A DNA stretch of 55,421 nucleotides from Clostridia bacterium (lineage in GTDB: Bacteria > Bacillota > Clostridia > Christensenellales > UBA1242), in NCBI GenBank assembly GCA_017481235.1, contig JAFUPL010000046.1, positions 1 to 55,421 on the forward strand, read 5' to 3'. The notes under the pieces are model-generated. The model was not told the origin of the DNA. It ran no database searches and saw only the letters and a list, made by a program, of their open reading frames with translations. This document shows, in pieces, positions 1-53,806 of this stretch; position 1 is the stretch's first letter; every line of letters begins with the position of its first letter. Made by a program: the position numbers and the translations under genes.

Positions 1-698
1 CCCTTAAGGTCTAGATTGCTAATTTCGGCAATATTAGATGCAAAAGATGTTAAATACATTTTGTGTTTTAAATACGTTGCAGTATCCAAACTATGAAATG
101 CAGTACGAATACTATCCACTTGTGAAGCACAATCGTCATATAGTGTATATAACATTGTTTGAGCAGTGCTATCCTTAATTTCGCCTTTGTCTACGCCTAA
201 ATAAATGTTGGTCATAGTGGCAATAGCCGATTTAGTTACCGCAAAACTTGTAGTTATAGCATTTTGTTGCTCTTTAGTTATATCATCTGGGACACTAATA
301 TCTGGTAACACAATTTCGTACACACAAGCGCTACTATATTCCCCTTTAATATTGTCCGCAACAGATTTGGCATTATCATAAGTTAAATAAAGTGAACTTA
401 GCACTTTATATTTTTTGTTGTACGTTATGTATCCAGCACCGCCTTTAGTTTGCAACTCTGTAGCAAAATTATACGCATCATCATAGTTATCAAAACTATC
501 CACTTCCACCGCGTAAAAATTGTTAGCATTTCGCCCCTTACCCGACACAAAACTAATTCCATTAGAAAAAAATGCAAAACTAACTAAATTGCATACACTA
601 ATTGCAAGCAATAATCCACATACTAAAACCGCTATTGAAAATATTCCACTTTTATGTTTGGAACTAACTTCATACACTTTATATTCTTTATTTTTCAT
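1..698 (-). CDS. membrane-anchored SPOR-like domain protein (C-terminus lies beyond the left window edge)
   Basis: Hand translation of the minus strand from ATG at 698 is stop-free to position 1 (MKNKEYKVYEVSSKHKSGIFSIAVLVCGLLLAI...). It has one N-terminal TM helix, then FYAVEVDSFDNYDDAYNFATELQTKGGAGYITYNKKYKVLSSLY, which resembles a SPOR repeat. It is missing from the ORF track because there is no stop inside the window. Confidence 0.55.
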   Translation of the reverse strand, partial: MKNKEYKVYEVSSKHKSGIFSIAVLVCGLLLAISVCNLVSFAFFSNGISFVSGKGRNANNFYAVEVDSFDNYDDAYNFATELQTKGGAGYITYNKKYKVLSSLYLTYDNAKSVADNIKGEYSSACVYEIVLPDISVPDDITKEQQNAITTSFAVTKSAIATMTNIYLGVDKGEIKDSTAQTMLYTLYDDCASQVDSIRTAFHSLDTATYLKHKMYLTSFASNIAEISNLDLK

Positions 699-729
699 AT
701 CTTATTTTATTTTGCAAATAGCAAATTTA

Positions 730-736
730 TGTCGAA
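730..736 (+). promoter_or_regulatory. perfect Spo0A-box heptamer TGTCGAA, 32 nt upstream of the SPOR-like gene start
   Basis: The exact heptamer sits in AAATTTATGTCGAAAAATAATT. Its flanks resemble the boxes at 32880, 39694 and 52738. Confidence 0.4.
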
Positions 737-767
737 AAATAATTTTTAACAATTTTTATAATATATC

Positions 768-856
768 CTCAATTCTTCATTATTAATTTTTAACTCTTCA
801 TTACAAAAGTGAATGCTTCCATAATTTTTCGTTTTTCACTCTTCATTTTTCACTAC
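768..856. repeat. dispersed AT-rich intergenic repeat, copy B (upstream of groES)
   Basis: CAATTCTTCATTATTAATTTTTAACTCTTCATTAC...TTTTTCACTCTTCATTTTTCAC aligns with 8597-8657 (CAATTATTCATTATTCATTTTTAATTCATCATTAT...TTTTCACTTTCAT). Confidence 0.5.
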
Positions 857-1038
857 TTTTACATATTTAGAAAAAATTTGGCACACCTTGTTCGTTTTTA
901 AAATTTGATATTGTATAATAATCGCGTAAATGTTTTAAGATTTAACATAATTAGACAAATTTATGTGCAAATTAATTATTTTACAAGCATTACAATATTC
1001 ACATACAGATTACACAATATGTAAAAAGGAGAAATAGT

Positions 1039-2921
<1,883 letters not shown>

Positions 2922-3030
2922 TACTTACAATGCATCAATCGTAGCAATAATTATATAGTTAATTGTTGTTGCGTTTCCCTTAGGTCAATTAATTTTACCC
3001 CTTTATTAATTGACTATAATCCTTTTCTTA

Positions 3031-3062
3031 AAAAGAACTCACAATCACGTGAGTTCTTTTTA
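3031..3062. terminator. bidirectional intrinsic terminator between groEL and the convergent membrane-protein gene
   Basis: AAAA-GAACTCAC-aatcac-GTGAGTTC-TTTT: an 8-bp stem flanked by A and T runs. Confidence 0.8.
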
Positions 3063-3074
3063 TTGCATTAATTA

Positions 3075-3623
3075 TTATTTCCTAAATTCAATCTCTGCAC
3101 CACAATGCTCGCAAAATCGCGCGTAACGATAATCCACTTCTTTGCCACAATACTTACAATAATGCTTATCACTTATAGGGTTTGTTTCGTTAGTTTTAAA
3201 TTGAGGTTCGTGTTTGCTTTGTTTTAATTTTTCAGCAAGTTGTTTATGCATTACCGCTTCAATTAAATCTAACGACCAATATATAACAAAAGGAATACAT
3301 AAATAACTTAAAAAGAATATTGCAAGTACTATTTTTACAATACATTCCCCCGTTGTAGTTGTTCGTTGACTTAACGGAATAGTTTTTACATTATTATACT
3401 TTTTAATCCATTTAATACTTATAATTGAGTAAACAAAAGCACCTATCATTAATGGAATTATAAATATAAATATCAGTCCGCTAATTGTATCTTCGCCATC
3501 ATATATAAACAATTGATAAACAGATAAAAATAAATATATCCCAACAATCAATGCCCCAATTAATGTAATTATTGCAATAATTAATCTTGCTATATCTAAA
3601 GCTCTTGGTTTTTTATCTTCCAT
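3075..3623 (-). CDS. multi-pass membrane protein with C-terminal zinc ribbon (CxxC...CxxC)
   Basis: 182 aa with several hydrophobic helices and C-terminal CKYCGKEVDYRYARFCEHCGAEI. SD AAAGGTGA lies upstream. Paralogous to 3633-4013. Confidence 0.7.
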   Translation of the reverse strand: MEDKKPRALDIARLIIAIITLIGALIVGIYLFLSVYQLFIYDGEDTISGLIFIFIIPLMIGAFVYSIISIKWIKKYNNVKTIPLSQRTTTTGECIVKIVLAIFFLSYLCIPFVIYWSLDLIEAVMHKQLAEKLKQSKHEPQFKTNETNPISDKHYCKYCGKEVDYRYARFCEHCGAEIEFRK

Positions 3624-3632
3624 AAATCACCT

Positions 3633-4013
3633 TTAACTATTACACTTTTTCTTTTTATTAACTTCCACAATATCGCAAATATATGCAATTAATAATGGTA
3701 GCGATAAGCCCAATATTGCAATAATTATTTTAACAACAATCCTACCAACACCAACATTGCGGTCTTTAAGTGAAATATTTTTGTTTTTAAAATACTTTTT
3801 AACACCAATAATACCCATAATTATATTTATTACTAGCACCACTCCCATTAATATAAAAATAGGAAATAGCAAAATTAAAAATATATTAGCAATATCATCA
3901 CCTTTGTTGATAGTGTAAAAATAATCGCCTACGATTATTCCTAATACAATCGCCCAAATAATTGCGATAATGCTCATAACCAACCTTGTAATATCTAAAC
4001 CTTTAGTTTCCAT
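3633..4013 (-). CDS. multi-pass membrane protein, paralog of 3075-3623 without the zinc ribbon
   Basis: I chose the start at METKGLDITRL (ATG 4013) because AAGGAG lies 7 nt upstream. Shared blocks: LDI(A/T)RL...II, and KY(N/F)..K.I(P/S)L..R......IVVKI.LAI. Confidence 0.65.
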   Translation of the reverse strand: METKGLDITRLVMSIIAIIWAIVLGIIVGDYFYTINKGDDIANIFLILLFPIFILMGVVLVINIIMGIIGVKKYFKNKNISLKDRNVGVGRIVVKIIIAILGLSLPLLIAYICDIVEVNKKKKCNS

Positions 4014-4058
4014 ACAAAACTCCTTAAAAATATTAATCTGCATTAAATATATGTGATT

Positions 4059-4337
4059 TTATAAAATTGAAGGTAACATAAATAGTGTTATAACAAACAA
4101 AACTGCAACACTTAATGGAACTAACACTTTAACAAACACGCTTAATAATTTGCTATCACTTTGCTTTGCCGAACTAACAGCCTTTTTGTAAATCCAACCA
4201 GGAATAGCAAGTAAAAACAATGAAATCAATGCCCAACCCCAATTAACACTCCACATACCAATTACAAACCACAACACTCCATAGTACAAAACTAATGCAA
4301 GTAATCCTAATAAAAACGCTTTAACACCCTTACTCAT
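4059..4337 (-). CDS. small (92 aa) membrane protein, unknown function
   Basis: Three predicted hydrophobic helices. SD AAAGGAG lies upstream. Confidence 0.6.
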   Translation of the reverse strand: MSKGVKAFLLGLLALVLYYGVLWFVIGMWSVNWGWALISLFLLAIPGWIYKKAVSSAKQSDSKLLSVFVKVLVPLSVAVLFVITLFMLPSIL

Positions 4338-4429
4338 AACATTTCTCCTTTGATACTAAATATTATATCACACAATTAAAAAAGTTGTATACTATTTTAT
4401 TAAAATAAAAAAATTAAGTTTTATAAACC

Positions 4430-4984
4430 TTAATTTTTTTTATACTTGCCTAAATAACTTTCATATTGTTTAATCCAACTATTGCGATATTCAACAAATT
4501 GAATTGCTATCGTATCGCTATTCACAAATTCATTAAGCAGTTCTGACATTTTTTCAAACACTTTTTCACTTTTATTAAGCAATCCTTCACTGCCACAGCC
4601 ATACATTTCAGTTTCTTCCTTTAATCTTATTTGAAATTCTTTGTTTTTATTAAGTAATTCGTCCATCTGTTTGCCTAATTCTCTTTTTAATTTTTCCGCG
4701 TCTAATATTCGTTTATTTATTGTGTTAATAGTATTTGCTAATTGTTTATTCAAAAGTGTATTACCTACTTTTACTTCCTTTCGCTTACCACTTTCATCAT
4801 CAATAATTATTTCCTTAACATCTTCAAGACATGAATGTAAATAAGCGACATCTTGGTACATAACCTCAATTAAACTTTCACACATTTTGCCATTAATTTC
4901 AAATGGTTTACACTCTAAAAAATTTCTTCTTGCCTCATCATATATATTTTGTCTACTTTCATAAGTATAAATGTCTTTTTCCAT
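4430..4984 (-). CDS. soluble helical or coiled-coil protein, unknown function (paralogous domain with 5086-6006)
   Basis: 184 aa. IYDEARRNFLECKPFEINGKMCESLIEVMYQD aligns with MYETAREILMDGKKVVMNGKRYDNLVSIMIKD of the neighbouring gene. Confidence 0.55.
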   Translation of the reverse strand: MEKDIYTYESRQNIYDEARRNFLECKPFEINGKMCESLIEVMYQDVAYLHSCLEDVKEIIIDDESGKRKEVKVGNTLLNKQLANTINTINKRILDAEKLKRELGKQMDELLNKNKEFQIRLKEETEMYGCGSEGLLNKSEKVFEKMSELLNEFVNSDTIAIQFVEYRNSWIKQYESYLGKYKKN

Positions 4985-5085: not shown

Positions 5086-6006
5086 TTATAAACTTACACT
5101 TGCTTGACGTCTTGCTAATTCATCTTCAATTTCTTTAATATATTTTTGAGTTATGATATAAGTTTTGTATGTTGCTTTTGTAATACAATCACCATTTAAT
5201 CTAAACAACAAACTACTTTCATATTCTTTTAAAAATTCTAATACATTGTTTAATTCATCAATACTTAATTTGGTTGTTTGTTTTAGTGTTTGAATATATT
5301 TATCTATATAATCATGATATTGTTGCAACATTTTAGCATCTTCAATTGCATTTCCTACTCTTTCAACCAATTTACGTGTTACTTTACCCTTTGACATAGC
5401 TTTTGATAAACTATCAAAAGTCTTTTCATCATCTTTTGTTTGTTGGTAAGTTTCGCATTCTTCAAGATGTCTTTCATACTTTTTTTGTTCCATCTCACAA
5501 TCTTTTATCATAATGCTAACCAAATTATCATAACGCTTGCCATTCATTACAACCTTTTTGCCATCCATTAAAATTTCTCTTGCAGTTTCATACATTGACT
5601 CACGATTATATTCTTCACCATAATCTGTACGAGTTTTAATATCTTTTTTAATTAAACTTTCTTGTTGTAACTTTCTAGTATTTAAAACTGATTGTTTACG
5701 TAAACTTATAACATTATTTTTTATATTTTGTAAATACAACAAAATTCTGGTTGGTTTATCAAGTGTAAATTCAACCCCATTTTCAGTTGTATAAGCATTT
5801 ACATCAAATGATTTTAAATCTATAACACAAGCCATGCTTTCAGATAGATATTCATTATTAATGTGATATGTACCTTTTGGCAGTTCCGCCCATAAGTAAA
5901 AATTGTCATTTAACGTATTAAAAACACGATGAACATTTTGACTTTGGTCGTCAACATCTTTATTAATATATTCTAATTCTTGTTCAGTAAATTTCATATT
6001 ATCCAT
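5086..6006 (-). CDS. soluble protein of unknown function (C-terminal half paralogous to 4430-4984)
   Basis: 306 aa. SD AAGGAG lies upstream, and its own terminator follows (AGGAGA-gcgcat-TCTCCT plus T-run at about 5056-5080). Confidence 0.55.
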   Translation of the reverse strand: MDNMKFTEQELEYINKDVDDQSQNVHRVFNTLNDNFYLWAELPKGTYHINNEYLSESMACVIDLKSFDVNAYTTENGVEFTLDKPTRILLYLQNIKNNVISLRKQSVLNTRKLQQESLIKKDIKTRTDYGEEYNRESMYETAREILMDGKKVVMNGKRYDNLVSIMIKDCEMEQKKYERHLEECETYQQTKDDEKTFDSLSKAMSKGKVTRKLVERVGNAIEDAKMLQQYHDYIDKYIQTLKQTTKLSIDELNNVLEFLKEYESSLLFRLNGDCITKATYKTYIITQKYIKEIEDELARRQASVSL

Positions 6007-9166: not shown

Positions 9167-9252
9167 GCCGATGTGGCGAAATGGCAGACGCACAAGACTC
9201 AAAATCTTGCGAGGGCAACCTCATGTCGGTTCGACCCCGACCATCGGCACCA
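9167..9252 (+). tRNA. tRNA-Leu (anticodon CAA), class II with long variable arm, CCA encoded
   Basis: Acceptor GCCGATG/CATCGGC. Anticodon stem CAAGA/TCTTG with loop CTCAAAA. T arm has GGTTCGA. Ends in CCA. Confidence 0.9.
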
Positions 9253-9363: not shown

Positions 9364-9395
9364 TAAAAAATCTCGCCATATAGGTGAGATTTTTG
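9364..9395. terminator. bidirectional terminator downstream of the Rho-like gene
   Basis: AAAAAA-ATCTCGCC-atata-GGTGAGAT-TTTT: an 8-bp stem with one G-T pair. Confidence 0.7.
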
Positions 9396-9401
9396 ATTGT
9401 A

Positions 9402-10730
9402 TTAAATTCTATAACTATTAAATAGGTCTATCTCATTGTTTTCAATTACTATCCCTAGCGTTTCCGAACTTCTAAATATATCATTGATATTATATGAATT
9501 TAAATTATTGTTGCGAAGCGAAATAATTGTAAAGTTTGTTCCACTACCTCGGTTGCTAACCTTTATACTATTTAATATAGTTTTACTTATAGGCATTTCT
9601 GTATCATAATTTTTATCAAGTGCCAAAATTGATTCAATATCATCAATCAGTACGGCAACACGTTTACCCATTTCAACTAAACGTTTAACATAATTAGCAC
9701 CTAATAAAGTAATTGTAACTTTGGTGTTAAATGATTCATTAGATTGGGTACAAAATTTAACAACCTTATACTCATCACCCAATGTAGTTGATAGTTTGTA
9801 TTGAGGATTAATATATACAACCTTATCAAACATTGCACTTAATTCTTCAACAAATTTTAATAATATATGATTTTTTTGTGTGGTTTTATTAAGATATAAA
9901 AACACACTATCGCCTTCAAGTAATTTAAATTTGCTTACAATTGACTTGGTATAATCTCCTACCCCCTTTAAAGATTTGGCCCTTGAATGATTTAATTCAT
10001 TAAACCATGGTCTATCCACGTTCCAGTAATATCTAGACTCTTGATTAATTGTAAATATAGAGTCTAGAATATTTAATCCATCAATGGTCTTGTAGGTGCA
10101 TACAATTTCATCTCCGTTGCGAAGTTGATATTTGCTAACATCTTCTTGAGATATATACACAACCAACAAATCAGCAGTGCAATCGCATCTTCTAATAATA
10201 CTAAATTCTGATTGAGTAACTTCCAAATAACCCTTAAATGTAGACACTACTTGAGTGTGCTTGCCACTTAAAGGGTTTTCCTCAGCAAGAATACAATTAC
10301 CAAATCCAAAATCTTCATCTTCAAAAAATGATATATTGGCATCTTCTTTTTTATTGATATCGCTAACCTTTAAAATGTCTTGATTTGTATGATTATGTTC
10401 AATTTTAGCAACTTTATAATTATATATTCCTAAATCCGCGCCAGTTTTTTGTCCATTTAAAACCCCTTCGTCAAGCAACGCATATATATTGCCCTCAACC
10501 GTATTTATTGGTTTGTCAAACAAATCTGGATTAATGGTATTTTGCTCATTTAACAACATAATACTATCTAAATCTTGACTAGTAAAGTGTGATTTACTAG
10601 ACACATCTTCCAATGGAGTAATATAAAAACTCAACCTAATATTATTAGGTATAAACGCTATAACTTTTTTGACTTTTTTAAGTTTTTTATTATTAAATCG
10701 CCTTTTCATCTTGTTAATTATACAATACAT
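9402..10730 (-). CDS. Rho-like protein with degenerate ATPase motifs (Rho RNA-binding OB/CSD-like domain plus P-loop-less RecA-like domain)
   Basis: GYLEVTQSEFSIIRR...VYISQEDVSKYQLRNGDEIV resembles Rho GVLEI..GFGFLR...IYVS.SQIRRF.LR.GD. VEMGKRVAVLIDDIESILAL resembles VEHGKDVVILLDSITRLARA. GSGTNFTIISL resembles GGSLTIIATAL. The P-loop position reads LYLNKTTQKN instead of PPKAGKT. The start is uncertain: TTG 10736, ATG 10730 or ATG 10709. Confidence 0.55.
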   Translation of the reverse strand: MYCIINKMKRRFNNKKLKKVKKVIAFIPNNIRLSFYITPLEDVSSKSHFTSQDLDSIMLLNEQNTINPDLFDKPINTVEGNIYALLDEGVLNGQKTGADLGIYNYKVAKIEHNHTNQDILKVSDINKKEDANISFFEDEDFGFGNCILAEENPLSGKHTQVVSTFKGYLEVTQSEFSIIRRCDCTADLLVVYISQEDVSKYQLRNGDEIVCTYKTIDGLNILDSIFTINQESRYYWNVDRPWFNELNHSRAKSLKGVGDYTKSIVSKFKLLEGDSVFLYLNKTTQKNHILLKFVEELSAMFDKVVYINPQYKLSTTLGDEYKVVKFCTQSNESFNTKVTITLLGANYVKRLVEMGKRVAVLIDDIESILALDKNYDTEMPISKTILNSIKVSNRGSGTNFTIISLRNNNLNSYNINDIFRSSETLGIVIENNEIDLFNSYRI

Positions 10731-10750
10731 ACTCAAAAAAGTAAACCACT

Positions 10751-10757
10751 TTCGACA
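10751..10757 (-). promoter_or_regulatory. perfect Spo0A-box heptamer (TGTCGAA on the minus strand) just upstream of the Rho-like gene
   Basis: Minus strand reads AAATTTGTCGAAA, identical over 13 nt to the boxes at 39694 and 52738. Confidence 0.4.
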
Positions 10758-10855
10758 AATTTTGACATTTTTTGATATTTTTACAGTTTGTTTACAAAAT
10801 ATAATATAAGATTTTGTATTAACAATATTATATCTTAGTTATTTAAGTTTGATTA

Positions 10856-13411: not shown

Positions 13412-13498
13412 TGGTGCGGATAACAGGATTTGAACCTGCAAGAATGTTAATTCACAAGATCCTTAGTCTTGCGCGTCTGCCAATTCCGCCATATCCGC
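13412..13498 (-). tRNA. tRNA-Leu, anticodon read by hand as AAG (class II, CCA encoded)
   Basis: Minus strand reads GCGGATATGGCGGAATTGGCAGACGCG-CAAGA-CTAAGGA-TCTTG-...GGTTCAAATCC...TATCCGCACCA. The anticodon loop C-U-A-A-G-G-A gives A34 A35 G36 with G37. Confidence 0.8.
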
Positions 13499-13671: not shown

Positions 13672-16600
13672 TTAACTTTGCTCTTCCCAAACATCTAATC
13701 CGTTTTTAGAGAATACTATATATTCTTGAGTATAACCAAAGGTCGAACTCCAATCATCATATTGAGACTTATCATACGCTATTATATACAAGAATATTGC
13801 TTTTAAATTATCATATTCAAAGTTGTTTGCTATAATATTCATTTTGTTTATAGGTTTAATTTGTTGTTGTTTGCTACCATCTATCAACGTATATCCTTCT
13901 CTTTCACTAGAGTCAAGACCACGTTTTAATGTTATAATCAACTTGCCTTGATAAATATAGTTTTGGTTGCCATCATCAACTTCAACTCCAATGCCACCAA
14001 TAGTTGAAACAAATGTTGAATCACTTAAACCTAATACCAAACCATATATTGCCGTTGCATTAACTAACCCATTATCAACATTTTCCATATATGAGGTATT
14101 AAATGAATAATAACTGCTTCTTTTAACAATAAATTTATTAATAAAACTTGTTTCAAGAGTATTGTTTGAATATAATGTTTCTGCACTATGAGACGGTTCA
14201 TTTACAAAACAATTTGACTCGTACACTGCCCCATTTTTAATGTTTTTATAAACATTTAATGTGTTTAAAGTTGCCACACCATAACTATTTTGTTGTTTGA
14301 TTATTGTAGAATATTTGTAATCTGTACCCACAATTCCTCCAACAAAGAAACCTTCCACACTTCCAGCAACCGAACAATTGTATACACTACCCTCAATGTT
14401 ACGTCCAACAATTCCGCCAATAGTTGCCAATGCTTGATTAGAAACAACATCAATATCACTAGAACAATTATCAATTAATCCGCCAATATTAAATCCAACA
14501 ATTCCGCCATTTACTCTTGCTGAATTATTAAAACAATTTGTTGTGTTTACGCGTTGTTTAACCCCTTCAACATAAGTGTAAGCGTATATCTTTGAACTTT
14601 GTATAATGCCACGGTTTTCACCAACCAAACCACCTGCGACATACACTCCTTGATATACTGTTTCGTCAGATAAATTGTAATTTACATCTTTAACTAATGT
14701 TCTTTCACCAACAAGTCCAAATGCTCCACCTACTGTTTCGCCAATAATTACTAAATCATTGTCAATATTAATGTTGCTAACTGTATAATAATAATTAATA
14801 TCTCTAACCAGTTTAGTCATGTTGTAACCGTCTACTATTCCTGCAAATGAACCAGCATAAGATACTTCATCAAGATTGTCTAACAAAGTATTTCCGCTAA
14901 CATTTTTACCCATATATAAATTATATTGAGTAGTTTGATTGTAGGCATACGTTGCAAACGCACTTACATTGCTAGTTATTCCCATTATTTCAAAACTTCC
15001 TTTAGCAATACCTACTAAACCACCTACCGCATTTTTACCTAATATTAGCAAATTGTTATTATCAATTGTTATATTGTATATATTTGCACTGTCAATTACA
15101 CCTGCCAACGCACCAACAGCATTACTTCCCGACGCCTTGATACTAGATGGTTGTAAAATCAAGTTACGAACATATACTCCTAATCCTAAATTGCCAATAT
15201 TGGAGAATAAACCAACACTTTCAACATCTTCAGTTTTGTAAATATTGTAATTTTTTAGTACCATATCATTGCCTTCAAAACTTGCTTTTAATATCTTATT
15301 AAATGTTGTTGGATTAGTATATTTACCCTCCGCTTCAAAGTCAATATCACGAACAAGACGGAAAGTTTTGCCTTCAATGGTATTGGTTGCAAGATTAGTA
15401 TTTAAATCAAAGAAATTTTCAAACGTTTCAACGTCATAAATATTGCAAATATTTTCATATTCGTTTTTGTTTGGATTAAACCCAGAATTTAAAAGTTGAG
15501 GTCCATTATTAGATATTGACCATACACCATATTCGCCATTTGCAAATATAAATCCATAGTACTTGCTTTGCAATGCTAATTCGCTAGGCATTACCAAAGT
15601 TAATCCACTTACATTAATATTAATGTCGTTGTCGGTGATTACATAACAATTAGTAATAGTTCCTATAGTATTGGTTACGTATATAAATCCGTTATAGAAC
15701 AAACTGCTTCCTAAAGTTGCATAAGCGTAACTATTGGAGATATTTCCTGTGCTTTGATATACAAAACCACCAATATTTCCTTGTGAAGAAAGTGAAGTTT
15801 GATTAATATAACAATTAGTGATAGTTCCCGCATTATTTAATACAAACCCTGCTGTTCTACCAACACTATGTATGTTATACGAACCAACTTTTATGCCACA
15901 TTGTACATAACTTAGTGATATATATGCACCATTTAAGTTTTGCACTACAAATCCCGCTGTTGTAATTTCGGCAACATATTGATTGCTGTCATTACTTTTA
16001 ATTGAACCTTTAAAGTTGGTATTGGTTATTTTGCCATAATTTGTGCCACTTACACCACCTATCAATGCCATAGCAGACATTTTTAGTTCAACGCTACTTC
16101 CAGTAATAGTTGCCACCTCTTTGCTATCTTGCGAACCATTTATTGCGGTTATACCACCCAAATCAATATATTGAGCACTTATATATTGTGCTTTAAGTGT
16201 AAATGCACCATATACTTTAACATTTGTGATAACGCCTAAATTTTGACCAGCAATTCCGCCAAAGTAGATATCGTTAGTGTGTTGTTGTTGAATAGATAAA
16301 CTATCATTTAAATTAACTTCTACAATTTCATCTCTATTGTTAACGTCTCTATATTCCACTTGTAAATTTTCAATTACACTATTTTCCGCTAATATACCAA
16401 ATAATCCAATGTACATTCCGCCTGAAATATAGTCTATTTCTAGTTGTGCAATATTAAAGTTTTTAATAGTAATTGTATTGCCATTACCTTTAAATCCGCC
16501 AATTGCTGTATTGATAGGAGTATAATCGATAAATGTTAAACTATCTACAATTTGATAATATCTGCCTTCCACCATATTTTCAAATTCTTGTTGCGAATTT

Positions 16601-19600
16601 ATAACTTCATATTCGATAAATGGTGTTGTTTTGGTAGTAACATCAAATCCAAATTGTTGTGTTAAAACTTCAACTTCGTTAGTTGTTAAAACTGGATAAA
16701 ATTCATATTCATATTTAAACTTAAATTGTACTATGAATTTCATATCATTGATATTAATAGAATTATCGTCTAAAGGTTGTTTTGCCTTAATTGTAAATCT
16801 ATAATTTTCGTTTACTATTGAAATAGTATCATCTTCATAACCATTATTAGTTAAAGGCGATAACTTGCTTATATCTGTTACATTGTTATTAACAAAGAAT
16901 ATATTTACCCCATCACTACCCAAAGTATTAAACGCCTTTAAGATATTGTTGATATATTCCATATCTGTTCTTAAAGCACCTTCATAATTATCTGGATTGG
17001 TTTTTTCTAATGTATAAGCAACATTCCAATAACCTTTGTAATAATATGAAATATCTGTTTTGTCAAAATAGAAGTATGTATTAAACGCTTCGTCCCAATT
17101 GCCATACACTTTGCCTTGTGAACTGGTTTGATACATGCTTACACCATGTACAACAAATCGTCTAATGTTAAACTTGATGGTTGCTCGACATGTTTCGGTT
17201 ATGCCATTCAAACTCTTTGACGCTGTAAAGTTAACGTTAATTTGCTTGCCTAGCAATTCGTCCCAACGACTTTGCTTACTTAAATCAAAAGTTAAAATAT
17301 ACTTACCATACACTTCTTCCAATCTTACAAAGTCACCATAAATACTAGTAACATCATTTAAGCCATTTGTAACCGTAATATAATTACTTAAACTACCTTC
17401 ATCAGTATTATCTGTCTTAATATCAATTCCCGCTTCAACGCCCAATGCAAGATCCACTGTTTTTTCTGCTGTTTGTGGCGCTACGCCATCGCTGGTATCC
17501 GCCACCACGGTTTTTCCATTAGGATAAGTGTATGTCATTTCAATTTTAGGATACATAACTGCTTCAAGATTTAAATATGATGAATTTAATTCATTGCCCG
17601 CTTTGTCGTATACCACAATGTGTATTGTATGAGTTATGTTTGCCATTGATTTACTAGGAAGTTTAGCAACAACGTATAGTGTAGATGCATTTACATCATG
17701 CTTGATTAATTTAATTCCGTTATCTGCCCAAATATCCATATTGTCAAGCAACACAAATCTTCCGTCATCTAACAATTTTACTTGTTGGAACAAAATCTTG
17801 TCTTCGCTGGTTATGTCCATAATCTTTATATGGTCATAAATCGCAATATTAGGAGCAATATCAATTGCAATAATATTGGTTTCGCCTGGACGAATTATCT
17901 TGCTTTGATAAGCATTATCTAACTTTATTTTATTTATATCATTTTGCTTATCTTCCATGCGATAATTAAGTGATATGACACTTGATATTGCTTGTGGTTT
18001 AACATTTATAAATACTGTAGTTGATATTTTGTTACTTCCATTATATACATACAAATCAAGTTGCAATCTATATGCGACATCAATATAGTATGACTGGTCG
18101 TTTAATTTTAACACTATAGTTGCTGTTTGTAACATATTATATATATCAATACCTGATATATCAAAATAATATTCCTTACTATCGTTATCATAAACAAGTT
18201 CTTTAACAATTGTAGTGTTATTATCAATATAATATAAACTTACATCAAGTGTATTAATCAAATCATTTCCGTTATTAGGATTTTGATAAATCTCACCCAC
18301 TGCTTCACGACTGATATAAAGTTTGTCCACTTGTACATCTGTTGTAACTTTTACATTCAACCTAGATTCTTTATCTGCTGGCATCATGTCTAATTGATTT
18401 TTGTTTACATTAACCGCACTTGCACCCTTTTTAGTTACCACGTTAAAACTCGTTTCAAAATTAGATAACTTAACTAAAATATCTTTTGAATAATTTCCAT
18501 TTTTATAACCTGCTACCACATATGGCGTTGCGGTTATTTCAAATTTGCCATCAACATACTGATTAACCGTAATTGTTATAGGTATTCCATATGGTATTCT
18601 ATATAAATATTTATCAACTATTGTAGTTGTATCTTTAGCGTCTATGATGTTTCCATGTGCGTCAAGGCGAATGTAATAATCTTGATTTAACGCAACATAC
18701 TTTGCTATATCTATAGGTAAAATTGTTTCCTTGCCACTATAGTCAATTTTAAATTCAATCAACATATTTGTAGCACTCTTATATTTGTATTCACGAGAAT
18801 GCTCGCCATATATAATTGAAGAATAATCTGCATAAATTATTTTGCTTGAATTTTTTACCACACTAATAGTTGTGTCATTGGTTATATTGTATTCATCTCT
18901 TAAATTAGCATTTGAATACAACTTAAAATTAAGCACTTGACTACGAACTATCACTACAAAACTTGCTGTTGCACTAGGATTTAAGGTTGACATTAATGTA
19001 ATAGTTGTTTGACCTTCACCGTTAAGCAATAATCTACCATTACTTAACACACTTGCAACACCAGCATTACTACTACGCAAATTGAAGCGCTTGTAAGTAT
19101 TTGGAAGCACAATAATTCCTTCACTTGATACAATATCTTTCATATCCACTATATTAAGGTAATTATAGTCGCTTACCGCAAATTCACCCGTCATATCACT
19201 TAATGGATAATAATACAATATCAACGCATGTTGACGATAATCACTTAAACTTGAACTGCTATCACCTGTTAATTCTAAATTTGCAAGTAGTGAATATCTA
19301 TCTTGATTAATATTATGTATACTAGGGTCATACTTAACATAATTTTCATCAACCTTAACGTAGTCACCTAACTTGTTTGGACGATACATTGCAGACCTAG
19401 TAAACGCTTGGTTGATTTGAATAACTGTAGGAATTACACTTACCAAACTAGTGCCGTCTTTGTAAACAACATAAGGTTTAGAATTGTTATATTGACTATT
19501 TACATTAAATCCATTTACTGGTGTGTTACTAGAAATTGTAGTTCCTTGATAATATCCGTCATCATTATTTAAAATTTGACCATATGATGAAGTATTTATA

Positions 19601-22600
19601 CCAATTTTGCCTTCACCGTTAACAATAGCATATATATTGTTGTAAGGAATATTAAAGATTAATTTTCCATCTTTAGCATACATCTTAGTAATTGAGTCAA
19701 GGTTATTTGAACTAATATTTGCGTCTATAACCCCATAGAAATATGCTGTGTATATTGCTCCAAAACACTCAAGTCGACCTATTATTCCGCTAACATTATT
19801 ACTTCCAGTTAAACTTACACTTGCAACGCTATTAACAACGCTAAGTGTTGGATCTGTATCTTTTTGTTTTTCAAAATAAGAGCTTCTAGATGATGTTCCC
19901 AAACCAATCAAACCGCCAACATTATTGATAGCTTCAATATCATACACTTGCACACTAGGTTGATAATTCCATGCAAAACTATTAGCATAACAATAATTTA
20001 ATGTGGTATCATTAGCATTACCAATTAAACCGCCTACATTGTCGTTACCTTTAATGCTTTGTTGAACTTGGTATATTTCATAATATACTTTTTCGTAAGT
20101 TCCATCTATATCATATCCTATAGCACCACCCACATTGTTATTGCCAATTACTTGTGCGTTGGAATAACTGTTAGTAACTTGATATTTAATACTTTTTTCA
20201 ATTGTAATTGTGTCTACCGCATTATGACTTGAATTTGGGTCACTTCTTGATGTTGTTATTACGTTAGTATTTTCAACACCTATATTTTTACCAATCAAAC
20301 CACCAATATTGTTAACAGTTAAAACGTTGGCACTATTATGACCCAAAATTTTTCCTGTAGAATAAACGTTAATCATTGTTCCATTCAATTGTTTAGTAGT
20401 TTCGTCAATACTTCCAACATTTTTGCCTATCACACCACCAATTGCACTATTATCTAAACTGTTATCTAAGTTATTAACATTTTCCACTTGAAGCACAATA
20501 TCCGCGGTTGCACCTTGCTTGTCGTAATATACATCATATTCAACTTTGTTCACATCGTCATCACCGCTAACAATTGAACTTGGAATATTTGCGCCTATCA
20601 ATTTTCCTTGATTTTCACCAATAACACCACCAAGTACCACTGTTGACGCGTTTGAGTTAGTTACATAAATATCTCCTTGAACACCTACTTGCTTAGTAAG
20701 TTTGGACATATCAATAGTTCCGTCACCTATGTTTAGCGCCACCATTGAACCTATGATATAGTTGTTGACATGGTTATTTGCATTAACTTTTCCACTAATT
20801 GTAATTGTTATATCTTTAATTAGCGCAGAGTTTTTACCAACAAGACCAATTAATATATCTATTAAGTCATCGTCAATATCTTTATTTGTCTTTGTTGAAA
20901 CATAATTAATATCTATATGGAAATCAATATTTTCTAGCACCGCTAATCCATCATCATTTGCATTTAAAACTTTAAACAATGCCGGATTACTTTCATTTAG
21001 CATAATTCCATAAATTGAAAATCTATTGTCAGAATTTTCACGTTCTTTGAAAGATGAAATTGTTCCGCTAAATTTATCAAAACTAATTGCTTTACCGTTT
21101 AAATCAATATCGTTTACTAAAGCATAGTGCTTTGTGATTTCACCATCAGTGTCAACGTCATTAGATATTTTTTCAAAATCACTGCCACTAGCAATTAAAT
21201 ACGGACTTGCGATACTTCCGTCACTTACAATTATATCAACCATAATATATGAAGAATTATTTTGAATGTACAACATAGTATTAAAGTAATTAGTTATTGT
21301 TAACAAACTTGCATTAAGTTGGTCTTTTGCCACAATTATTAATTTTGCCTTACCTGCACTGGTTGCTTTTAGCAATCCATTGTCATCAATAGTTGCAATG
21401 CTATTAATTTGATATCCCGATGTGCTACACACTATATATTCAACACCACTGAACGATACTTTACCTTTGGAAGATGTTGTGGTGGCATCAATTGTTATTT
21501 GTTCGCCTACTTTTAAATTAATATATCCGTTACCAGAACTAAAAGTATTAATATGAGTATTTAAAACTACTCGTTCACTTAAAATAGGTTCACTAACCTC
21601 GTAATTGCAATATATTGGATATTGAACTCCAAATTGGTTAATAGTGGCAATTATTCTTCCAGCAAGTATTCCATTTAATGTTTTTCTATTGCCAAAAGTA
21701 AATTCCGCACTAGCATTATTAGATGAAACTGTATAATCACAAATCCCATCACCAATTCCTGTTCCTGAAGCAATCCATTTAATATCTACATAATCTAATA
21801 TCGTTTCGCTATTATTGTTTAATTGTATATTTAATGTTTGTTGACCATATTCTTCTTTCAAATTTGAATTAGGAATACTATGATAATTGTACTTATACAA
21901 CATTGTACTATCAAAAGTTGCTGAAGTTAGAGGTTCGTACACGTATATATAAATAGTTTTTGGAATTTCTACTGATTCACCTTTGTTTAGTTTGTAATAT
22001 GAATAAGTATTTGCTTTGATTGTGTATGTTATGGCGACATAATTTTTAGTGTTAGTTTCAACATCAAACGAACCAATACTACTCGTTCGTATAATGTCAT
22101 TGCCATCAGCATCTTTCGATGGTAAATAATTTGCGTAACTTTTGTTGCTAGTTTTGGTAGGGTTATTTACCATAACTGCTGTAACCTCTTGCCCACTAGT
22201 ATTGACAAAATCAGAATTTGAAATATCTATATTTACTTTGTACTGATTTGATGTTGAAAGTATATATGTATTGTTTATATCCAAATCATCAATATCAACC
22301 TTTGTGTAATACAACTTGTTTGGATTAAATTCGTCACTAGATTTTACTTTAATATATTGACCACCAATACATTCGTAATAAGTAGTAGTACCCCAATCGT
22401 TTGGTTGTGTATTAAGTGGTTGATATTCGTATAGCAATCGCTCACCACTAAAGTCAGGGGCCGAAATTGTTACACTAACATCATTACCTTGCAACTGTTT
22501 ATATACTTTTACACCTATAGTGCTGATTGTTCTTGGTTTTCCATCTTCAGCACCTTGTGAAATGTCAATAAAATAGTCACCACATTGTATGTCACCTGTT

Positions 22601-39542: not shown

Positions 39543-39628
39543 ACTCATTCCCCTTTTTACCGCTATTTGTAAAATTATGGATTCCAACTTTAGTTGGATT
39601 TGCTCGACTATAATAATTTGATACATTA

Positions 39629-39657
39629 ATTTTAACAATTTGAATATGATTTGTCAA
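39629..39657 (-). promoter_or_regulatory. conserved extended -10 promoter of LRR gene 2
   Basis: Minus strand reads TTGACA, 17-nt spacer ending in TGT, then TAAAAT. Confidence 0.6.
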
Positions 39658-39693: not shown

Positions 39694-39751
39694 TGTCGAA
39701 ATTTATTTGTTTTGACACTAATATATGCGACAAAATCTACCCATTACGACA
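39694..39751. promoter_or_regulatory. cluster of three Spo0A-type boxes in the LRR-2/addB divergent region
   Basis: TGTCGAA is on the plus strand at 39694-39700. TGTCGCA (39732-39726) and TGTCGTA (39751-39745) are on the minus strand, each preceded by TTT. Confidence 0.4.
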
Positions 39752-52872: not shown

Positions 52873-52900
52873 AAAAAAAACTAAGCAAGTGCTTAGTTTT
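52873..52900 (-). terminator. intrinsic terminator of sigG (overlaps the stop codon)
   Basis: Minus strand reads AAAACTAAG-cacttg-CTTAGTTTT followed by TTTT. Confidence 0.75.
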
Positions 52901-53672
52901 ATGACATATATCGTTTAATTTGCTCTAATGCATTTTTTTCTAACCTACTTACTTGTGCTTGCGATATACCTATTTCATTGCTAACTTCCATTTGAGTTTT
53001 GCCCGCAAAATACCTTAGGTCAAGTATTTGTTTTTCCCTTGCATCAAGGTTTCTAACCGCGTCTTTCAGGTCCACATTTTGCAACCACTTGTCACTATTT
53101 TGACTTTCGTCCGCAAGGTGTTCTAGTAGCAACACTTGGTCGTCATCATCATTGTACATTGCCTCGTCAAGCGACAATGGCGCACTTATTGCATCAATTG
53201 CGTCTACCACCTCAAACAATGTAAGGTTTAAATCACTTGCAATTTCCTCCAAACTAACCTCGTCCGAACGGTCTTTGCTAAGTCGTTCCTTGCTTTTTAG
53301 CACCAAATATGCTGTATCACGCAAACTTCTGCTTACTCGCATACTACTACTATCCCTTAAAAATCGCTTAATTTCGCCCACTATCATAGGCACGGCATAG
53401 GTGCTAAATCTCACATTTAGCGTAAGGTCAAAGTTGTCAATTGCCTTCATAAGTCCCACACAACCCACTTGGAAAATATCGTCCATACTTTCCTTTGTAT
53501 CGCAAAACCGTTGTGCAACCGACAACACCAATCTCATATTGCAATAAATAAAATGCTCTTTTGCTTGCTCACAACCGTCTTTAATTTGATGTAAAATGCT
53601 AACTGTTTCGTCATTTGTAAGTCTAGGAATATTTGAAGTATTAATGTTACAAATATAAACTTTTCTTGACAT
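52899..53672 (-). CDS. sigG: sporulation sigma factor SigG
   Basis: NMRLVLSVAQRF, DDIFQVGCVGLMKAIDNFD, VRFSTYAVPMIVGEIKRFLRD and VSRSLRDTAY are SigG-like. I chose the ATG at 53672 (MSRKV) with AGGAG 6 nt upstream; the track start at 53678 is a TTG. Confidence 0.85.
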   Translation of the reverse strand: MSRKVYICNINTSNIPRLTNDETVSILHQIKDGCEQAKEHFIYCNMRLVLSVAQRFCDTKESMDDIFQVGCVGLMKAIDNFDLTLNVRFSTYAVPMIVGEIKRFLRDSSSMRVSRSLRDTAYLVLKSKERLSKDRSDEVSLEEIASDLNLTLFEVVDAIDAISAPLSLDEAMYNDDDDQVLLLEHLADESQNSDKWLQNVDLKDAVRNLDAREKQILDLRYFAGKTQMEVSNEIGISQAQVSRLEKNALEQIKRYMS

Positions 53673-53806
53673 AACCAACTCCTAAGCGTATTGTTTGCTT
53701 TGCAAAAATTTTTATACCCAAAAATTGTAAAACTCTAAATTTTGACAACATAAGTTATATTCAAACATTTAATTACTTTTTTTTATTTCTTTTACATGTT
53801 TAAATT

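What the first reader, a model, noticed from the sequence alone, without database searches (positions are those of the whole stretch)
9402..10736. Rho-like ORF that keeps the Rho fold landmarks but has lost the P-loop and the C-terminal end: a candidate pseudo-ATPase Rho paralog
My by-eye alignment to bacterial Rho is collinear from the OB/CSD RNA-binding domain to the RecA-like domain. GYLEVTQSEFSIIRR...LLVVYISQEDVSKYQLRNGDEIV matches GVLEI..GFGFLR...DIYVS.SQIRRF.LR.GD. RPWFNELNHS matches RV.F..LTPL. LEGDSVFLYLNKTTQKNHILLKF matches GFGQRGLIVAPPKAGKTMLL. VEMGKRVAVLIDDIESILAL matches VEH.KDV.ILLDSITRLARA. GSGTNFTIISL matches GGSLTI.ATAL. LFNSYRI matches IFPAIDI. The Walker A consensus GxxxxGK(T/S) is absent: the sequence reads LNKTTQKN. 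The DERPEE segment reads YINPQYK. The protein stops where Rho continues with RSGTRKEELL, which in Rho contains an arginine important for catalysis. About 165 unrelated residues precede the OB domain in place of the Rho N-terminal helical bundle. An RNA-binding hexamer scaffold that cannot hydrolyse ATP would be a new kind of Rho derivative, for example an RNA chaperone, an anti-Rho factor or a regulator. The gene lies in the cassette bounded by the two tRNA-Leu genes and has a Spo0A box at its 5' end.
Basis: partly seen in the sequence, partly recalled or inferred. Interest (0 to 1): 0.68.

Follow-up and report, generated by a model that had tools for sequence, protein, structure and literature searches.

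The report
Motor-dead Rho relative, Spo0A-box promoter
A conserved gene of uncultured gut Clostridia encodes a relative of the transcription terminator Rho that keeps Rho's shape but has lost its ATP-motor motifs, and its promoter carries conserved binding-site-like boxes for the sporulation master regulator Spo0A, which suggests a new regulatory use of an old machine.

Summary
Window 9402-10709 (minus strand, 435 aa from the ATG) encodes a true Rho homologue. Pfam Rho_RNA_bind passes its cut-off. A family profile hits Rho structures at E=2e-12 in one collinear stretch, and the top 50 fold matches are all Rho.

It cannot be a Rho motor. Walker A, the catalytic Glu/Arg-valve, the Q-loop (deleted), the R-loop, the Rho_N domain and the C-terminal helices are all gone in every family member. 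It does keep the Walker-B Asp, "KRLVE" and an invariant Ser-x-Arg at the last residues.

It is not a pseudogene. There are more than 57 full-length relatives, and 6 of 7 strain-level substitutions are synonymous with no indels.

Two results go beyond the finding. First, it is the most derived tier of a graded series of P-loop-less Rho derivatives in uncultured Clostridia. Second, the single "Spo0A box" is part of a promoter better conserved than the protein: TGTCRAA repeats in 10-bp register abut the -35, followed by a leaderless-type start. An exact box is found in 12 of 13 loci (P~2e-26).

The window also carries spoIIGA-sigE. Whether a canonical rho coexists in the genome could not be tested.

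The parts
9402..10709 (-). Coding sequence of the Rho-like pseudo-ATPase (435 aa from ATG 10709; stop TAA at 9402-9404). The longest ORF reaches a TTG at 10736, but those 9 extra codons are translated promoter DNA.
   Evidence: (P0001 is 100% identical, 435 aa)
10269..10709 (-). Family-specific N-terminal region (residues 10-156 in 444-numbering). It has a basic tail and is mostly predicted disordered. It does not match Rho_N and does not align with the Rho_N of the sister tier.
10416..10499 (-). Conserved N-terminal island VEGNIYALLDEGVLNGQKTGADLGIYNY (residues 80-107). It is the only confidently folded part of the N-terminal region; function unknown.
10044..10268 (-). Rho-type OB / cold-shock-like domain (residues 157-231). 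The equivalents of G53, F62, R66, Y80 and LRxGD are kept. The equivalents of F64, D78, E108 and Y110 are lost.
9405..9959 (-). RecA-like domain without catalytic or translocation motifs (residues 260-444).
9870..9896 (-). Walker A remnant YLNKTTQKN, aligned on Rho APPKAGKT. No member of the family has GxxxxGK[ST].
9795..9815 (-). YINPQYK in place of Rho LIDERPEE. The catalytic Glu211 is replaced by a near-invariant Pro, and the Arg valve is lost.
9639..9689 (-). VKRLVE helix plus the Walker B strand AVLIDD. R352, E355 and D365 are invariant. This is the best-kept part of the Rho ATPase core.
9405..9431 (-). C-terminal IDLFNSYRI, aligned on Rho I358-D359...S363-G-T-R366. S441 and R443 are invariant and the protein ends here.
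10717..10745 (-). Sigma-70-type promoter TTTACT-17 nt-TATAAT. The -10 box ends 7 nt before the ATG and there is no Shine-Dalgarno sequence, so the mRNA is inferred to be leaderless or nearly so.
10751..10777 (-). Three head-to-tail 0A-box-like heptamers in exact 10-nt register: TATCAAA 10771-10777, TGTCAAA 10761-10767 and TGTCGAA 10751-10757. The last one ends 5 nt before the -35.
9366..9394 (-). Hairpin followed by a T-run, 8 nt after the stop codon. It is inferred to be an intrinsic terminator, so the gene is a stand-alone transcription unit.

Best explanation
The gene encodes a Rho-derived pseudo-ATPase that is under selection.

Shown:
- It has a Rho-type OB fold joined to a RecA-like domain in Rho's arrangement.
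- Walker A, the catalytic Glu, the Arg valve, the Q-loop, the R-loop, Rho_N and the C-terminal helices are absent in every family member.
- The gene is kept intact across dozens of species-level lineages and among strains.
- Its promoter is more conserved than its protein. That promoter has tandem TGTCRAA boxes at 10-bp spacing directly upstream of the -35, and a -10 box 6-8 nt before the ATG.

Inferred:
- It cannot hydrolyse ATP or thread RNA through a central channel, so it is not a terminator motor.
- It acts as a passive scaffold that binds nucleic acid or a partner protein, through the remaining OB cleft, the basic N-terminus and the RecA-like body. It may still be oligomeric, since the Walker-B Asp, E425 and the terminal Ser-x-Arg at the former subunit interface are invariant.
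- Its synthesis is switched, most likely activated, by phosphorylated Spo0A binding the boxes at about -42 to -68 when cells enter stationary phase or sporulation.
- Its likely output is to modulate transcription termination or RNA fate at that transition, rather than to carry out termination.

My confidence by layer:
- Rho-derived and motor-dead: about 0.95.
- Functional gene: about 0.9.
- Spo0A-controlled: about 0.65.
- Acts on termination or RNA fate: about 0.3-0.4.
For: Homology and fold.

Family-wide motif loss and retained invariants.

Functional constraint:
- 57 relatives at 34-54% identity, nearly all full length.
- The exhaustive profile search lists about 22 core-family representatives (50%-identity clusters) at E below 1e-89.
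- The strain variants show 7 substitutions: 6 are synonymous, one is a conservative I121L in the disordered linker, and there are no indels.

Stand-alone unit: own promoter and terminator, and no conserved neighbours.

Promoter conservation:
- All 10 core-family loci keep a box (exact TGTCGAA in 9, TATCGAA in L001) followed by TTTAC, TATAAT and the ATG 6-8 nt later, although the proteins are only 33-52% identical.
- An exact box lies within 120 nt upstream in 12 of 13 loci. The background probability is 0.006 per locus, giving a binomial P of 2e-26.
- One further sister-tier locus also has the box.
- This architecture occurs nowhere else in these loci.

Sporulation context:
- spoIIGA and a pro-sigma-E-like ORF lie in the same window.
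- Related P-loop-less forms lie next to spo0A, sipL, spoIIR, sleB and ypeB, or about 5 kb from a Spo0A_C gene and spmA/B-like genes.
- The Spo0A in L015 keeps the recognition helix SKVERAIRHAIEVAW. From my own knowledge, B. subtilis Spo0A has SRVERAIRHAIEVAW.

Biological precedent for a Rho-Spo0A connection in B. subtilis: PMC5540618, PMC9931155, PMC11599450.
Against: - There is no expression data; no RNA run could be found.
- spo0A itself was not seen in this window or in the core-family loci, so its presence in this genome is inferred from spoIIGA-sigE.
- The boxes could belong to another regulator.
- L001 has only near-boxes and L018 has none.
- The 13 loci share ancestry, so the binomial P overstates independence.
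- The promoter already has a 10/12 match to the sigma-70 consensus, so activation and repression cannot be told apart.
- The OB pocket has lost the equivalents of F64, D78, E108 and Y110, so RNA binding is not assured.
- The oligomeric state is unknown.
- The shortest sister tier lacks the terminal Ser-x-Arg, so that feature is not essential to the wider clade.
Confidence: 0.55

Rival explanations
1. Poison or decoy subunit. The genome also has a canonical rho, and this protein co-assembles with it into mixed rings. Rho's ATP sites lie between subunits. A subunit without a P-loop that still offers an interface arginine would disable or re-tune the ring. Induction by Spo0A would then lower Rho activity at sporulation entry, which is a positive feedback.
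For: The RecA-like core and the interface-proximal invariants D365, E425, S441 and R443 are retained while the catalytic residues are lost. The Spo0A-box promoter is conserved. In B. subtilis, Rho must fall for sporulation to start (PMC5540618, PMC11599450). Clostridia include Rho-positive species (PMC13613805).
Against: No canonical rho was seen in the 55-kb window or in any fetched locus, and coexistence could not be tested. The shortest sister tier lacks the terminal arginine. Loss of Rho_N, the C-terminal helices and the Q-loop may make the interfaces incompatible.
Confidence: 0.2
2. Sole degenerate descendant of rho in a lineage that gave up Rho-dependent termination. It has been retained and re-purposed for a role unrelated to termination, for example as a protein scaffold or a DNA-binding factor. 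The conserved boxes are read by a regulator other than Spo0A.
For: There is a graded decay series, from full-length forms that have lost the P-loop to truncated forms. The core family and the Rho_N-bearing sister tier lie in a shared neighbourhood, yet their Rho-like proteins are only 27-29% identical while neighbours are 69-75% identical. Low-GC Bacillota often lack Rho (PMC11347177). The RNA pocket is half degenerate.
Against: The boxes match the Spo0A consensus exactly and in the tandem 10-bp geometry. The sporulation genes nearby in related loci are unlikely to be coincidental.
Confidence: 0.17
3. Still an active NTPase or translocase that uses a non-canonical nucleotide site.
For: The Walker-B Asp, a Lys at the Walker-A lysine position in many members (QK), and a terminal Arg are retained.
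Against: The P-loop glycines and Thr are missing. The QK Lys is not conserved across the family. The catalytic Glu is replaced by Pro. The Q-loop is deleted and the R-loop Lys is lost in all members.
Confidence: 0.03
4. Decaying pseudogene or chance ORF.
For: Catalytic motifs are lost, and the protein diverges quickly relative to its neighbours.
Against: There are more than 57 intact full-length relatives with 22 invariant residues. The fold is predicted with confidence. Strain variants are 6/7 synonymous with no indels. The promoter and terminator are conserved.
Confidence: 0.02

Closest known systems
Transcription termination factor Rho (E. coli, T. maritima, M. tuberculosis; PDB 3ICE, 1PV4, 3L0O, 7OQH)
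   Same: The OB/cold-shock RNA-binding fold is followed by a RecA-like domain in the same order and geometry. The LRxGD, KRLVE, Walker-B Asp, GSxT strand and ID..S.R elements are shared.
   Different: It has no Rho_N, no Walker A, no catalytic Glu or Arg valve, no Q-loop, no R-loop and no C-terminal helices. It scores 32-33 bits against NCBIfam Rho cut-offs of 315 and 509. It cannot be an ATP-driven translocase.
P-loop-less Rho derivatives of uncultured Clostridia found here: about 390 aa forms with Rho_N that end in SYR[RK] (P0066-P0072, P0211); about 355 aa forms (P0076, P0203, P0246); full-length forms (P0266, P0269)
   Same: Homologous from the OB fold to the last residue (hhalign 100%, E=3e-48). 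The 390-aa tier shares the Q-loop deletion and the SYR end. It also shares leaderless-type promoters with a TGTCGAA box and a related neighbourhood.
   Different: Those forms keep a strongly conserved canonical Rho_N domain, whereas the window's family has an unrelated N-terminal region. Identity is only 27-29%. The full-length forms still have IDERPED, S.TRK and the C-terminal helices, and have no 0A box.
Short second Rho copies ('Group B' / Type 4; NCBIfam paralog_Rho2 NF041509) described by D'Heygere 2013 and Moreira 2024 (PMC11347177)
   Same: They are extra or shortened Rho forms that lack the N-terminal domain.
   Different: According to PMC11347177 those forms keep the catalytic ATPase residues and the bicyclomycin pocket. 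The window protein scores 18.7 bits against a cut-off of 628 for NF041509 and has none of the catalytic residues.
'Rho-like' sequences as defined in PMC11347177 (only one Rho domain, or Rho_N plus RNA-binding) and the cyanobacterial Rho_N-only DUF4912 proteins (PMC13613805)
   Same: By domain-HMM criteria this protein would fall into that bin, because only Rho_RNA_bind is detectable.
   Different: Those papers do not analyse such proteins in their main text. Here the 'missing' ATPase domain is shown to be present as a degenerate RecA-like fold.
Non-catalytic subunits of ring ATPases, for example F1-ATPase alpha (analogy from my own knowledge)
   Same: A RecA-like ring subunit that does not hydrolyse ATP yet keeps interface residues, including an arginine near the neighbour's site.
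   Different: F1 alpha keeps its P-loop and binds nucleotide. Hetero-assembly is unproven here.
Protein antagonists of Rho (Psu, Rof/YaeO, YihE; reviewed in PMC12360218)
   Same: Possible functional analogy: lowering Rho activity under particular conditions.
   Different: Their folds are unrelated, and none is derived from Rho itself.

Membership tests
Functional transcription termination factor Rho | Rho-type OB/CSD RNA-binding domain (Pfam PF07497) | tested here: met
   30.8 bits against a gathering cut-off of 27, residues 168-217. Most relatives carry the precomputed PF07497 hit.
Functional transcription termination factor Rho | Whole-protein score above the NCBIfam equivalog cut-offs (NF006886, TIGR00767) | tested here: not met
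   33.3 against 315 bits, and 31.8 against 509 bits.
Functional transcription termination factor Rho | Walker A / P-loop GxxxxGK[ST] (E. coli 178-185) | tested here: not met
   YLNKTTQKN aligns on APPKAGKT, and no family member has the motif.
Functional transcription termination factor Rho | Catalytic Glu211 and Arg valve R212 (IDERPEE) | tested here: not met
   INPQYK occupies this position, with near-invariant Asn-Pro.
Functional transcription termination factor Rho | Walker B Asp265 | tested here: met
   D365 is invariant, within VLIDD.
Functional transcription termination factor Rho | Secondary RNA-binding site: Q-loop (278-290) and R-loop Lys326 | tested here: not met
   The Q-loop is deleted (a gap of about 14 residues). 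The R-loop position is variable and has no Lys.
Functional transcription termination factor Rho | Arginine finger R366 | tested here: inconclusive
   The invariant R443 aligns at the T365/R366 position, within one residue, and lies next to the protein's last residue. No structural superposition or assay was possible.
Functional transcription termination factor Rho | N-terminal helical domain Rho_N (PF07498) | tested here: not met
   There is no Pfam hit. The N-terminus does not align with the Rho_N of the sister tier.
Functional transcription termination factor Rho | Primary-site pyrimidine pocket (F64, R66, D78, Y80, E108, Y110) | tested here: inconclusive
   The R66 and Y80 equivalents are kept. 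The F64, D78, E108 and Y110 equivalents are lost.
Functional transcription termination factor Rho | OB plus RecA-like two-domain fold as in solved Rho structures | tested here: met
   The top 50 Foldseek PDB hits are all Rho, with E down to 6e-16 and TM of about 0.5-0.65.
Functional transcription termination factor Rho | Hexameric ring; RNA-stimulated ATPase and helicase activity | not testable with these tools
   This needs biochemistry or multimer modelling.
NCBIfam paralog_Rho2 (Rho, short form, NF041509) | Score above the curated cut-off of 628 bits | tested here: not met
   18.7 bits. The sister tiers reach at most 46 bits, and the highest score among all ten proteins scanned is 222 bits.
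Pseudoenzyme (pseudo-ATPase) derived from an active family | Homology to the enzyme, with loss of catalytic residues and the gene kept under purifying selection | tested here: met
   for homology and motif loss. for constraint.
Spo0A regulon member | 0A box(es) TGTCGAA at the promoter, conserved in orthologues | tested here: met
   12 of 13 loci have an exact box within 120 nt upstream. The boxes are tandem in 10-bp register and abut the -35.
Spo0A regulon member | spo0A present in the same genome | not tested
   spoIIGA and a sigE-like ORF are in the window. spo0A was seen only in a related lineage.
Spo0A regulon member | Spo0A-dependent transcription or Spo0A binding | not testable with these tools
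   This needs footprinting or reporter assays.

The most novel reading that the evidence does not exclude
A Spo0A-induced, Rho-derived decoy subunit. At entry into sporulation the cell makes a motor-dead Rho look-alike. It either co-assembles with Rho or competes with Rho for RNA or RNA polymerase. The effect is to shut down Rho-dependent termination and close a positive feedback loop on Spo0A. This would be a self-derived protein antagonist of Rho. It would also mean that a whole clade of uncultured gut Clostridia has turned its terminator into a developmental regulator.
Probability: 0.17. Interest if true: 0.85.

Novelty: new variant of a known kind. Interest (0 to 1): 0.7.

Why it matters
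Rho is treated as a conserved ATP motor, and surveys classify genomes as Rho-positive or Rho-negative by domain HMMs. This locus shows a third state: a selected, motor-dead Rho scaffold. It belongs to a graded series of P-loop-less Rho derivatives that domain-based surveys would bin as 'Rho-like' or overlook.

The promoter architecture ties it to Spo0A. That mirrors the experimentally established interplay between Rho level and sporulation entry in B. subtilis, and suggests these bacteria hard-wired the link in a different way.

If confirmed, it would give a natural pseudo-enzyme for dissecting the non-motor functions of Rho, such as RNA or RNA-polymerase binding and ring assembly. It would also give a testable new node in clostridial sporulation control.

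Tried and rejected
- Conserved synteny within the core family: none. The Rho-like gene is the only shared gene among the window and L001-L006.
- tRNA-Leu-bounded 'cassette' as a mobile unit: not conserved, and GC is 0.289 against 0.313 for the window.
- N-terminal island as a remnant of the Rho_N helix: hhalign does not align the N-termini.
- 'Extended -10': the conserved TG directly abuts the hexamer, and the scan does not score it as a canonical TGn, so I dropped the term.
- Membership in NCBIfam paralog_Rho2: far below the cut-off.
- Phage or defence origin: no PHROGs or PADLOC hit. Mobile elements lie next to the gene only in single loci.
- Structured RNA at the locus: Rfam finds only the two tRNAs.
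- Expression evidence: no RNA run could be listed.
- Organism names for the sister tiers: none are held.
- Tandem-dimer fold to probe the interface: prepared but abandoned, because the structure tool returns no contacts or coordinates.
- Literature: no description of an ATPase-dead Rho derivative was found.
Full report
WHAT IS THERE. The window comes from a low-GC (31%) chromosome region. The window sequence itself was found in bovine, goat and other gut metagenomes. The genome records that hold relatives are titled Candidatus Onthoplasma (Christensenellales) or 'Clostridia bacterium'. An uninterrupted ORF lies on the minus strand at 9402-10736. The identical database protein and the relatives begin at the ATG at 10709, giving 435 aa. 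The 9 extra codons of the longest ORF, and the longer 'N-terminal extensions' of several database entries, are translated promoter DNA.

IS IT RHO-LIKE? Yes, by four independent measures.
- Pfam Rho_RNA_bind passes its gathering threshold: 30.8 against 27 bits, residues 168-217.
- A profile built from 37 family members hits T. maritima Rho at E=2.3e-12 and E. coli Rho at about 4e-10. The match is a single stretch that runs from the OB fold through Walker B, profile positions 164-368 against Rho 60-275.
- hhalign against E. coli Rho gives 96% probability.
- An AlphaFold model built on the family alignment is confident from about residue 160 to 444 (pLDDT about 90). Its top 50 PDB fold matches are all Rho, with E down to 6e-16 over 300-335 aligned columns.

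WHAT HAS BEEN LOST AND KEPT. I aligned the family with E. coli Rho (sequence), canonical Clostridia Rho and intermediate forms.

Lost in every member:
- Walker A: YLNKTTQKN lies on APPKAGKT.
- Catalytic Glu211 and Arg valve R212: INPQYK, with a near-invariant Asn-Pro.
- The Q-loop, which is deleted (about 14 residues).
- The R-loop Lys326.
- The Rho_N helical domain.
- All 53 residues that follow R366 in E. coli.

Kept:
- The Walker-B Asp (D365, invariant).
- The KRLVE helix (R352 and E355 invariant).
- The GSxT strand and E425.
- The very C-terminus, IDLFNSYRI, which aligns with Rho I358-D359...S363-G-T-R366. S441 and R443 are invariant.

The protein therefore ends at the arginine-finger position, not before it. 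This corrects one detail of the finding.

In the OB fold the equivalents of G53, F62, R66, Y80 and LRxGD persist. Those of F64, D78, E108 and Y110 do not. The pyrimidine pocket is thus half degenerate.

The N-terminal 156 residues are mostly predicted disordered. They contain a conserved, confidently folded island at residues 80-107. They do not align with Rho_N.

By every catalytic and translocation criterion this cannot be a Rho motor.

IS IT A DEAD GENE? No.
- There are 57 relatives at 34-54% identity. Nearly all are full length, and 22 columns are invariant.
- An exhaustive profile search of 1.84 billion representatives lists about 22 core-family representatives (50%-identity clusters) at E below 1e-89.
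- Contigs from four metagenome runs that hold strain variants of this exact locus show seven substitutions in the coding region. Six are synonymous third-position changes. One is a conservative I121L in the disordered linker. There are no indels or rearrangements.
- The gene has its own promoter and a hairpin plus T-run 8 nt after the stop.

A WIDER FAMILY OF MOTOR-DEAD RHO. The exhaustive search and a follow-up search revealed tiers beyond the core family.
1. About 390 aa proteins with a canonical, very strongly conserved Rho_N domain, an OB fold and a P-loop-less RecA-like domain. They share the same Q-loop deletion and the same ...SYR[RK] end.
2. About 355 aa proteins that are truncated even earlier.
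3. About 385-413 aa variants.
4. Full-length, about 470 aa proteins that have lost Walker A (VTPNNIDYS) and other motifs but still have IDERPED, S.TRK and the C-terminal helices.
5. Proteins with an intact P-loop that lack the catalytic Glu and the Arg finger (P0111).

Canonical Clostridia Rho proteins in the same searches have every motif intact. None of the degenerate tiers reaches any NCBIfam Rho cut-off, including paralog_Rho2.

The core family and the 390-aa tier are homologous from the OB fold to the last residue (hhalign E=3e-48). They also lie in a related neighbourhood: Amidase_6 is 75% identical, GluRS 69%, and there is a shared giant protein and shared unknowns. Yet the Rho-like proteins themselves are only 27-29% identical. 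Either this gene evolves much faster than its neighbours, or the two tiers are old paralogs.

All of these proteins are unnamed or 'hypothetical' MAG proteins.

THE PROMOTER. This part of the finding grew the most. TGTCGAA as a heptamer occurs at chance frequency in the window, 6 against 4.2 expected. Its placement, however, is conserved.

In the window and in nine other core-family loci, whose proteins are only 33-52% identical, the upstream DNA has the same layout:
- TGTCRAA-like heptamers head-to-tail with 3-nt spacers, that is, in 10-bp register. The window has three: 10771-10777, 10761-10767 and 10751-10757.
- The promoter-proximal heptamer is an exact TGTCGAA in nine of the ten loci and TATCGAA in L001.
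- Then 5-6 nt, then TTTAC(T/A).
- Then a spacer of about 17 nt (17 nt in the window), then TATAAT.
- Then 6-8 nt (up to about 30 nt in L003), then the ATG, with no Shine-Dalgarno sequence.

The consensus scan ranks this as the best promoter in the region, matching 10 of 12 positions. This architecture occurs nowhere else in these loci.

An exact box lies within 120 nt upstream in 12 of 13 loci, counting two sister tiers. The background chance is 0.006 per locus, so the binomial P is 2e-26. The loci are related by descent, so this overstates independence. One more sister-tier locus has its only box in 9.8 kb at -79, and another has none. The full-length P-loop-less form and a canonical Rho have none.

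From my own knowledge, TGTCGAA is the Spo0A '0A box'. Tandem boxes with 3-bp spacers are the arrangement at B. subtilis abrB. Boxes placed just upstream of the -35 resemble the Spo0A-activated spoIIG site 2.

Most other genes in the window have ordinary Shine-Dalgarno sequences. The leaderless-type start is a minority pattern, shared with addB and spoIIGA.

SPORULATION CONTEXT.
- The window itself encodes SpoIIGA (E=2e-32), followed by a pro-sigma-E-like ORF, plus another sigma factor. The organism therefore belongs to an endospore lineage, and Spo0A is expected there, although I did not see it.
- In a related organism the full-length P-loop-less form sits directly after spo0A, veg, sipL, spoIIR, a sleB-like gene and ypeB. 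That Spo0A keeps the recognition helix SKVERAIRHAIEVAW.
- Both sampled loci of the 355-aa tier have a stand-alone Spo0A_C gene and spmA/B-like genes about 5 kb upstream.
- In B. subtilis, Rho is part of the Spo0A network, and its level must fall for sporulation to start (PMC5540618, PMC9931155, PMC11599450).

HOW IT MOST LIKELY WORKS. Shown: a selected, stand-alone gene for a Rho-shaped protein with no ATPase or translocation apparatus, behind a promoter with conserved tandem 0A-type boxes.

Inferred: the protein is a passive scaffold that binds nucleic acid or a partner protein. It may still be oligomeric, given the invariant residues at what was the inter-subunit nucleotide site. It is made on command of phosphorylated Spo0A at entry into stationary phase or sporulation. 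It modulates termination or RNA fate rather than executing termination.

I put about 0.95 on 'Rho-derived and motor-dead', about 0.9 on 'functional gene', about 0.65 on 'Spo0A-controlled', and 0.3-0.4 on an effect on termination or RNA fate.

The sharpest version is a decoy subunit that poisons canonical Rho rings and feeds back on Spo0A. It needs a co-resident canonical rho, which I could not check, and I give it about 0.17-0.2.

The main alternative is that this is the lineage's only, re-purposed rho descendant. Surveys report that many low-GC Bacillota and some Clostridia lack functional Rho (PMC11347177, PMC13613805).

COMPARISON WITH WHAT IS KNOWN. The protein is a homologue of Rho but fails most of Rho's defining features, so I do not file it as a Rho.

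It is not the known short 'Group B/Type 4/paralog_Rho2' copy, which keeps the catalytic residues (PMC11347177).

It would fall into the 'Rho-like' bin of the 2024 survey, where only one Rho domain is detectable. That paper defers such sequences to its supplement, and I could not read the supplement.

The 2025 review of Rho regulation lists unrelated protein antagonists (Psu, Rof, YihE) but no Rho-derived one. Targeted searches found no paper on an ATPase-dead Rho.

I therefore rate it a new variant of a known kind.

LIMITS.
- There is no expression data.
- I had no access to the rest of the genome, so both canonical rho and spo0A are untested for this organism.
- I had no multimer model and no biochemistry.
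- The statements about 0A-box geometry and about B. subtilis sequences rest on my own knowledge.

Noticed in passing
L013:3215-3577 and L014:4876-5241: Stand-alone genes of about 120 aa that consist only of a Spo0A_C DNA-binding domain. There is no receiver domain in any upstream frame, and the recognition helix is diverged (CTIERDIRNIINVLW). They lie about 5 kb upstream of the 355-aa P-loop-less Rho forms, next to spmA/B-like genes. This may be a receiver-less Spo0A paralogue.
   Followed up: partly
window 53822-54637 (+), about 54808-55421 (+), 52899-53678 (-): spoIIGA is followed by a pro-sigma-E-like ORF that runs off the window end. A further sigma-70-family factor lies divergently upstream. 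spoIIGA has a TACAAT 6 nt before its ATG and no Shine-Dalgarno sequence, and a reverse TGTCAAA-like box (TTTGACA) lies about 75 nt upstream.
   Followed up: partly
window 39694-39700 and 39805 (addB start): addB also has a leaderless-type start (TATAAT, then 6 nt, then ATG, with no SD). An exact TGTCGAA lies about 110 nt upstream. In this window leaderless starts seem limited to a few genes: the Rho-like gene, addB and spoIIGA.
   Followed up: partly
window 13672-24888 (-): A giant 3,738-aa ORF whose only Pfam hit is a weak Big_2 match. A 28%-identical giant protein occupies the syntenic position in L012. It is presumably a surface or adhesin protein.
   Followed up: no
window 30156-32771, 35601-39638, 49746-52628 (all -): Three large BspA-type leucine-rich-repeat proteins (871, 1345 and 960 aa). 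Two of them carry Listeria-Bacteroides repeat domains, which suggests a large surface-protein repertoire.
   Followed up: no
P0111, P0139, P0117, P0129, P0266, P0269 (database proteins): Full-length Rho proteins from metagenomes with partial motif loss. P0111 keeps an intact P-loop but lacks the catalytic Glu and the Arg finger. P0266 and P0269 lack a P-loop but keep IDERPED and S.TRK. JGI names P0266 and P0269 'transcription termination factor Rho'.
   Followed up: partly
L009:about 5800-6000, with Cas9/Cas1 at 652-4931: A CRISPR array of 36-nt repeats (ATTATACCATACCAAATAAGAAAAGGATACTAAAAC) from a type II system ends immediately upstream of the Rho-like gene's promoter in this divergent family member.
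   Followed up: no
L010:4340-9335: An inovirus-like block (Zot, REP_ORF2-G2P and many small ORFs) lies directly downstream of the Rho-like gene in this locus only.
   Followed up: no
P0057 and P0098 (database proteins): P0057 (529 aa) joins the Rho-like protein to DNA polymerase III beta (DnaN) domains. P0098 has the family N-terminus followed by unrelated sequence. Both are probably assembly or gene-calling chimeras. L005 has two unannotated ORFs, of 455 and 372 aa, immediately downstream of the Rho-like gene.
   Followed up: no
window 9167-9252 (+) and 13412-13498 (-): Two tRNA-Leu genes (anticodons CAA and AAG) point inward around a four-gene segment: M19 dipeptidase, Amidase_6, a 201-aa membrane protein and the Rho-like gene. 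The arrangement recurs on a contig that encodes a 100%-identical protein (L008) but not in other species.
   Followed up: yes
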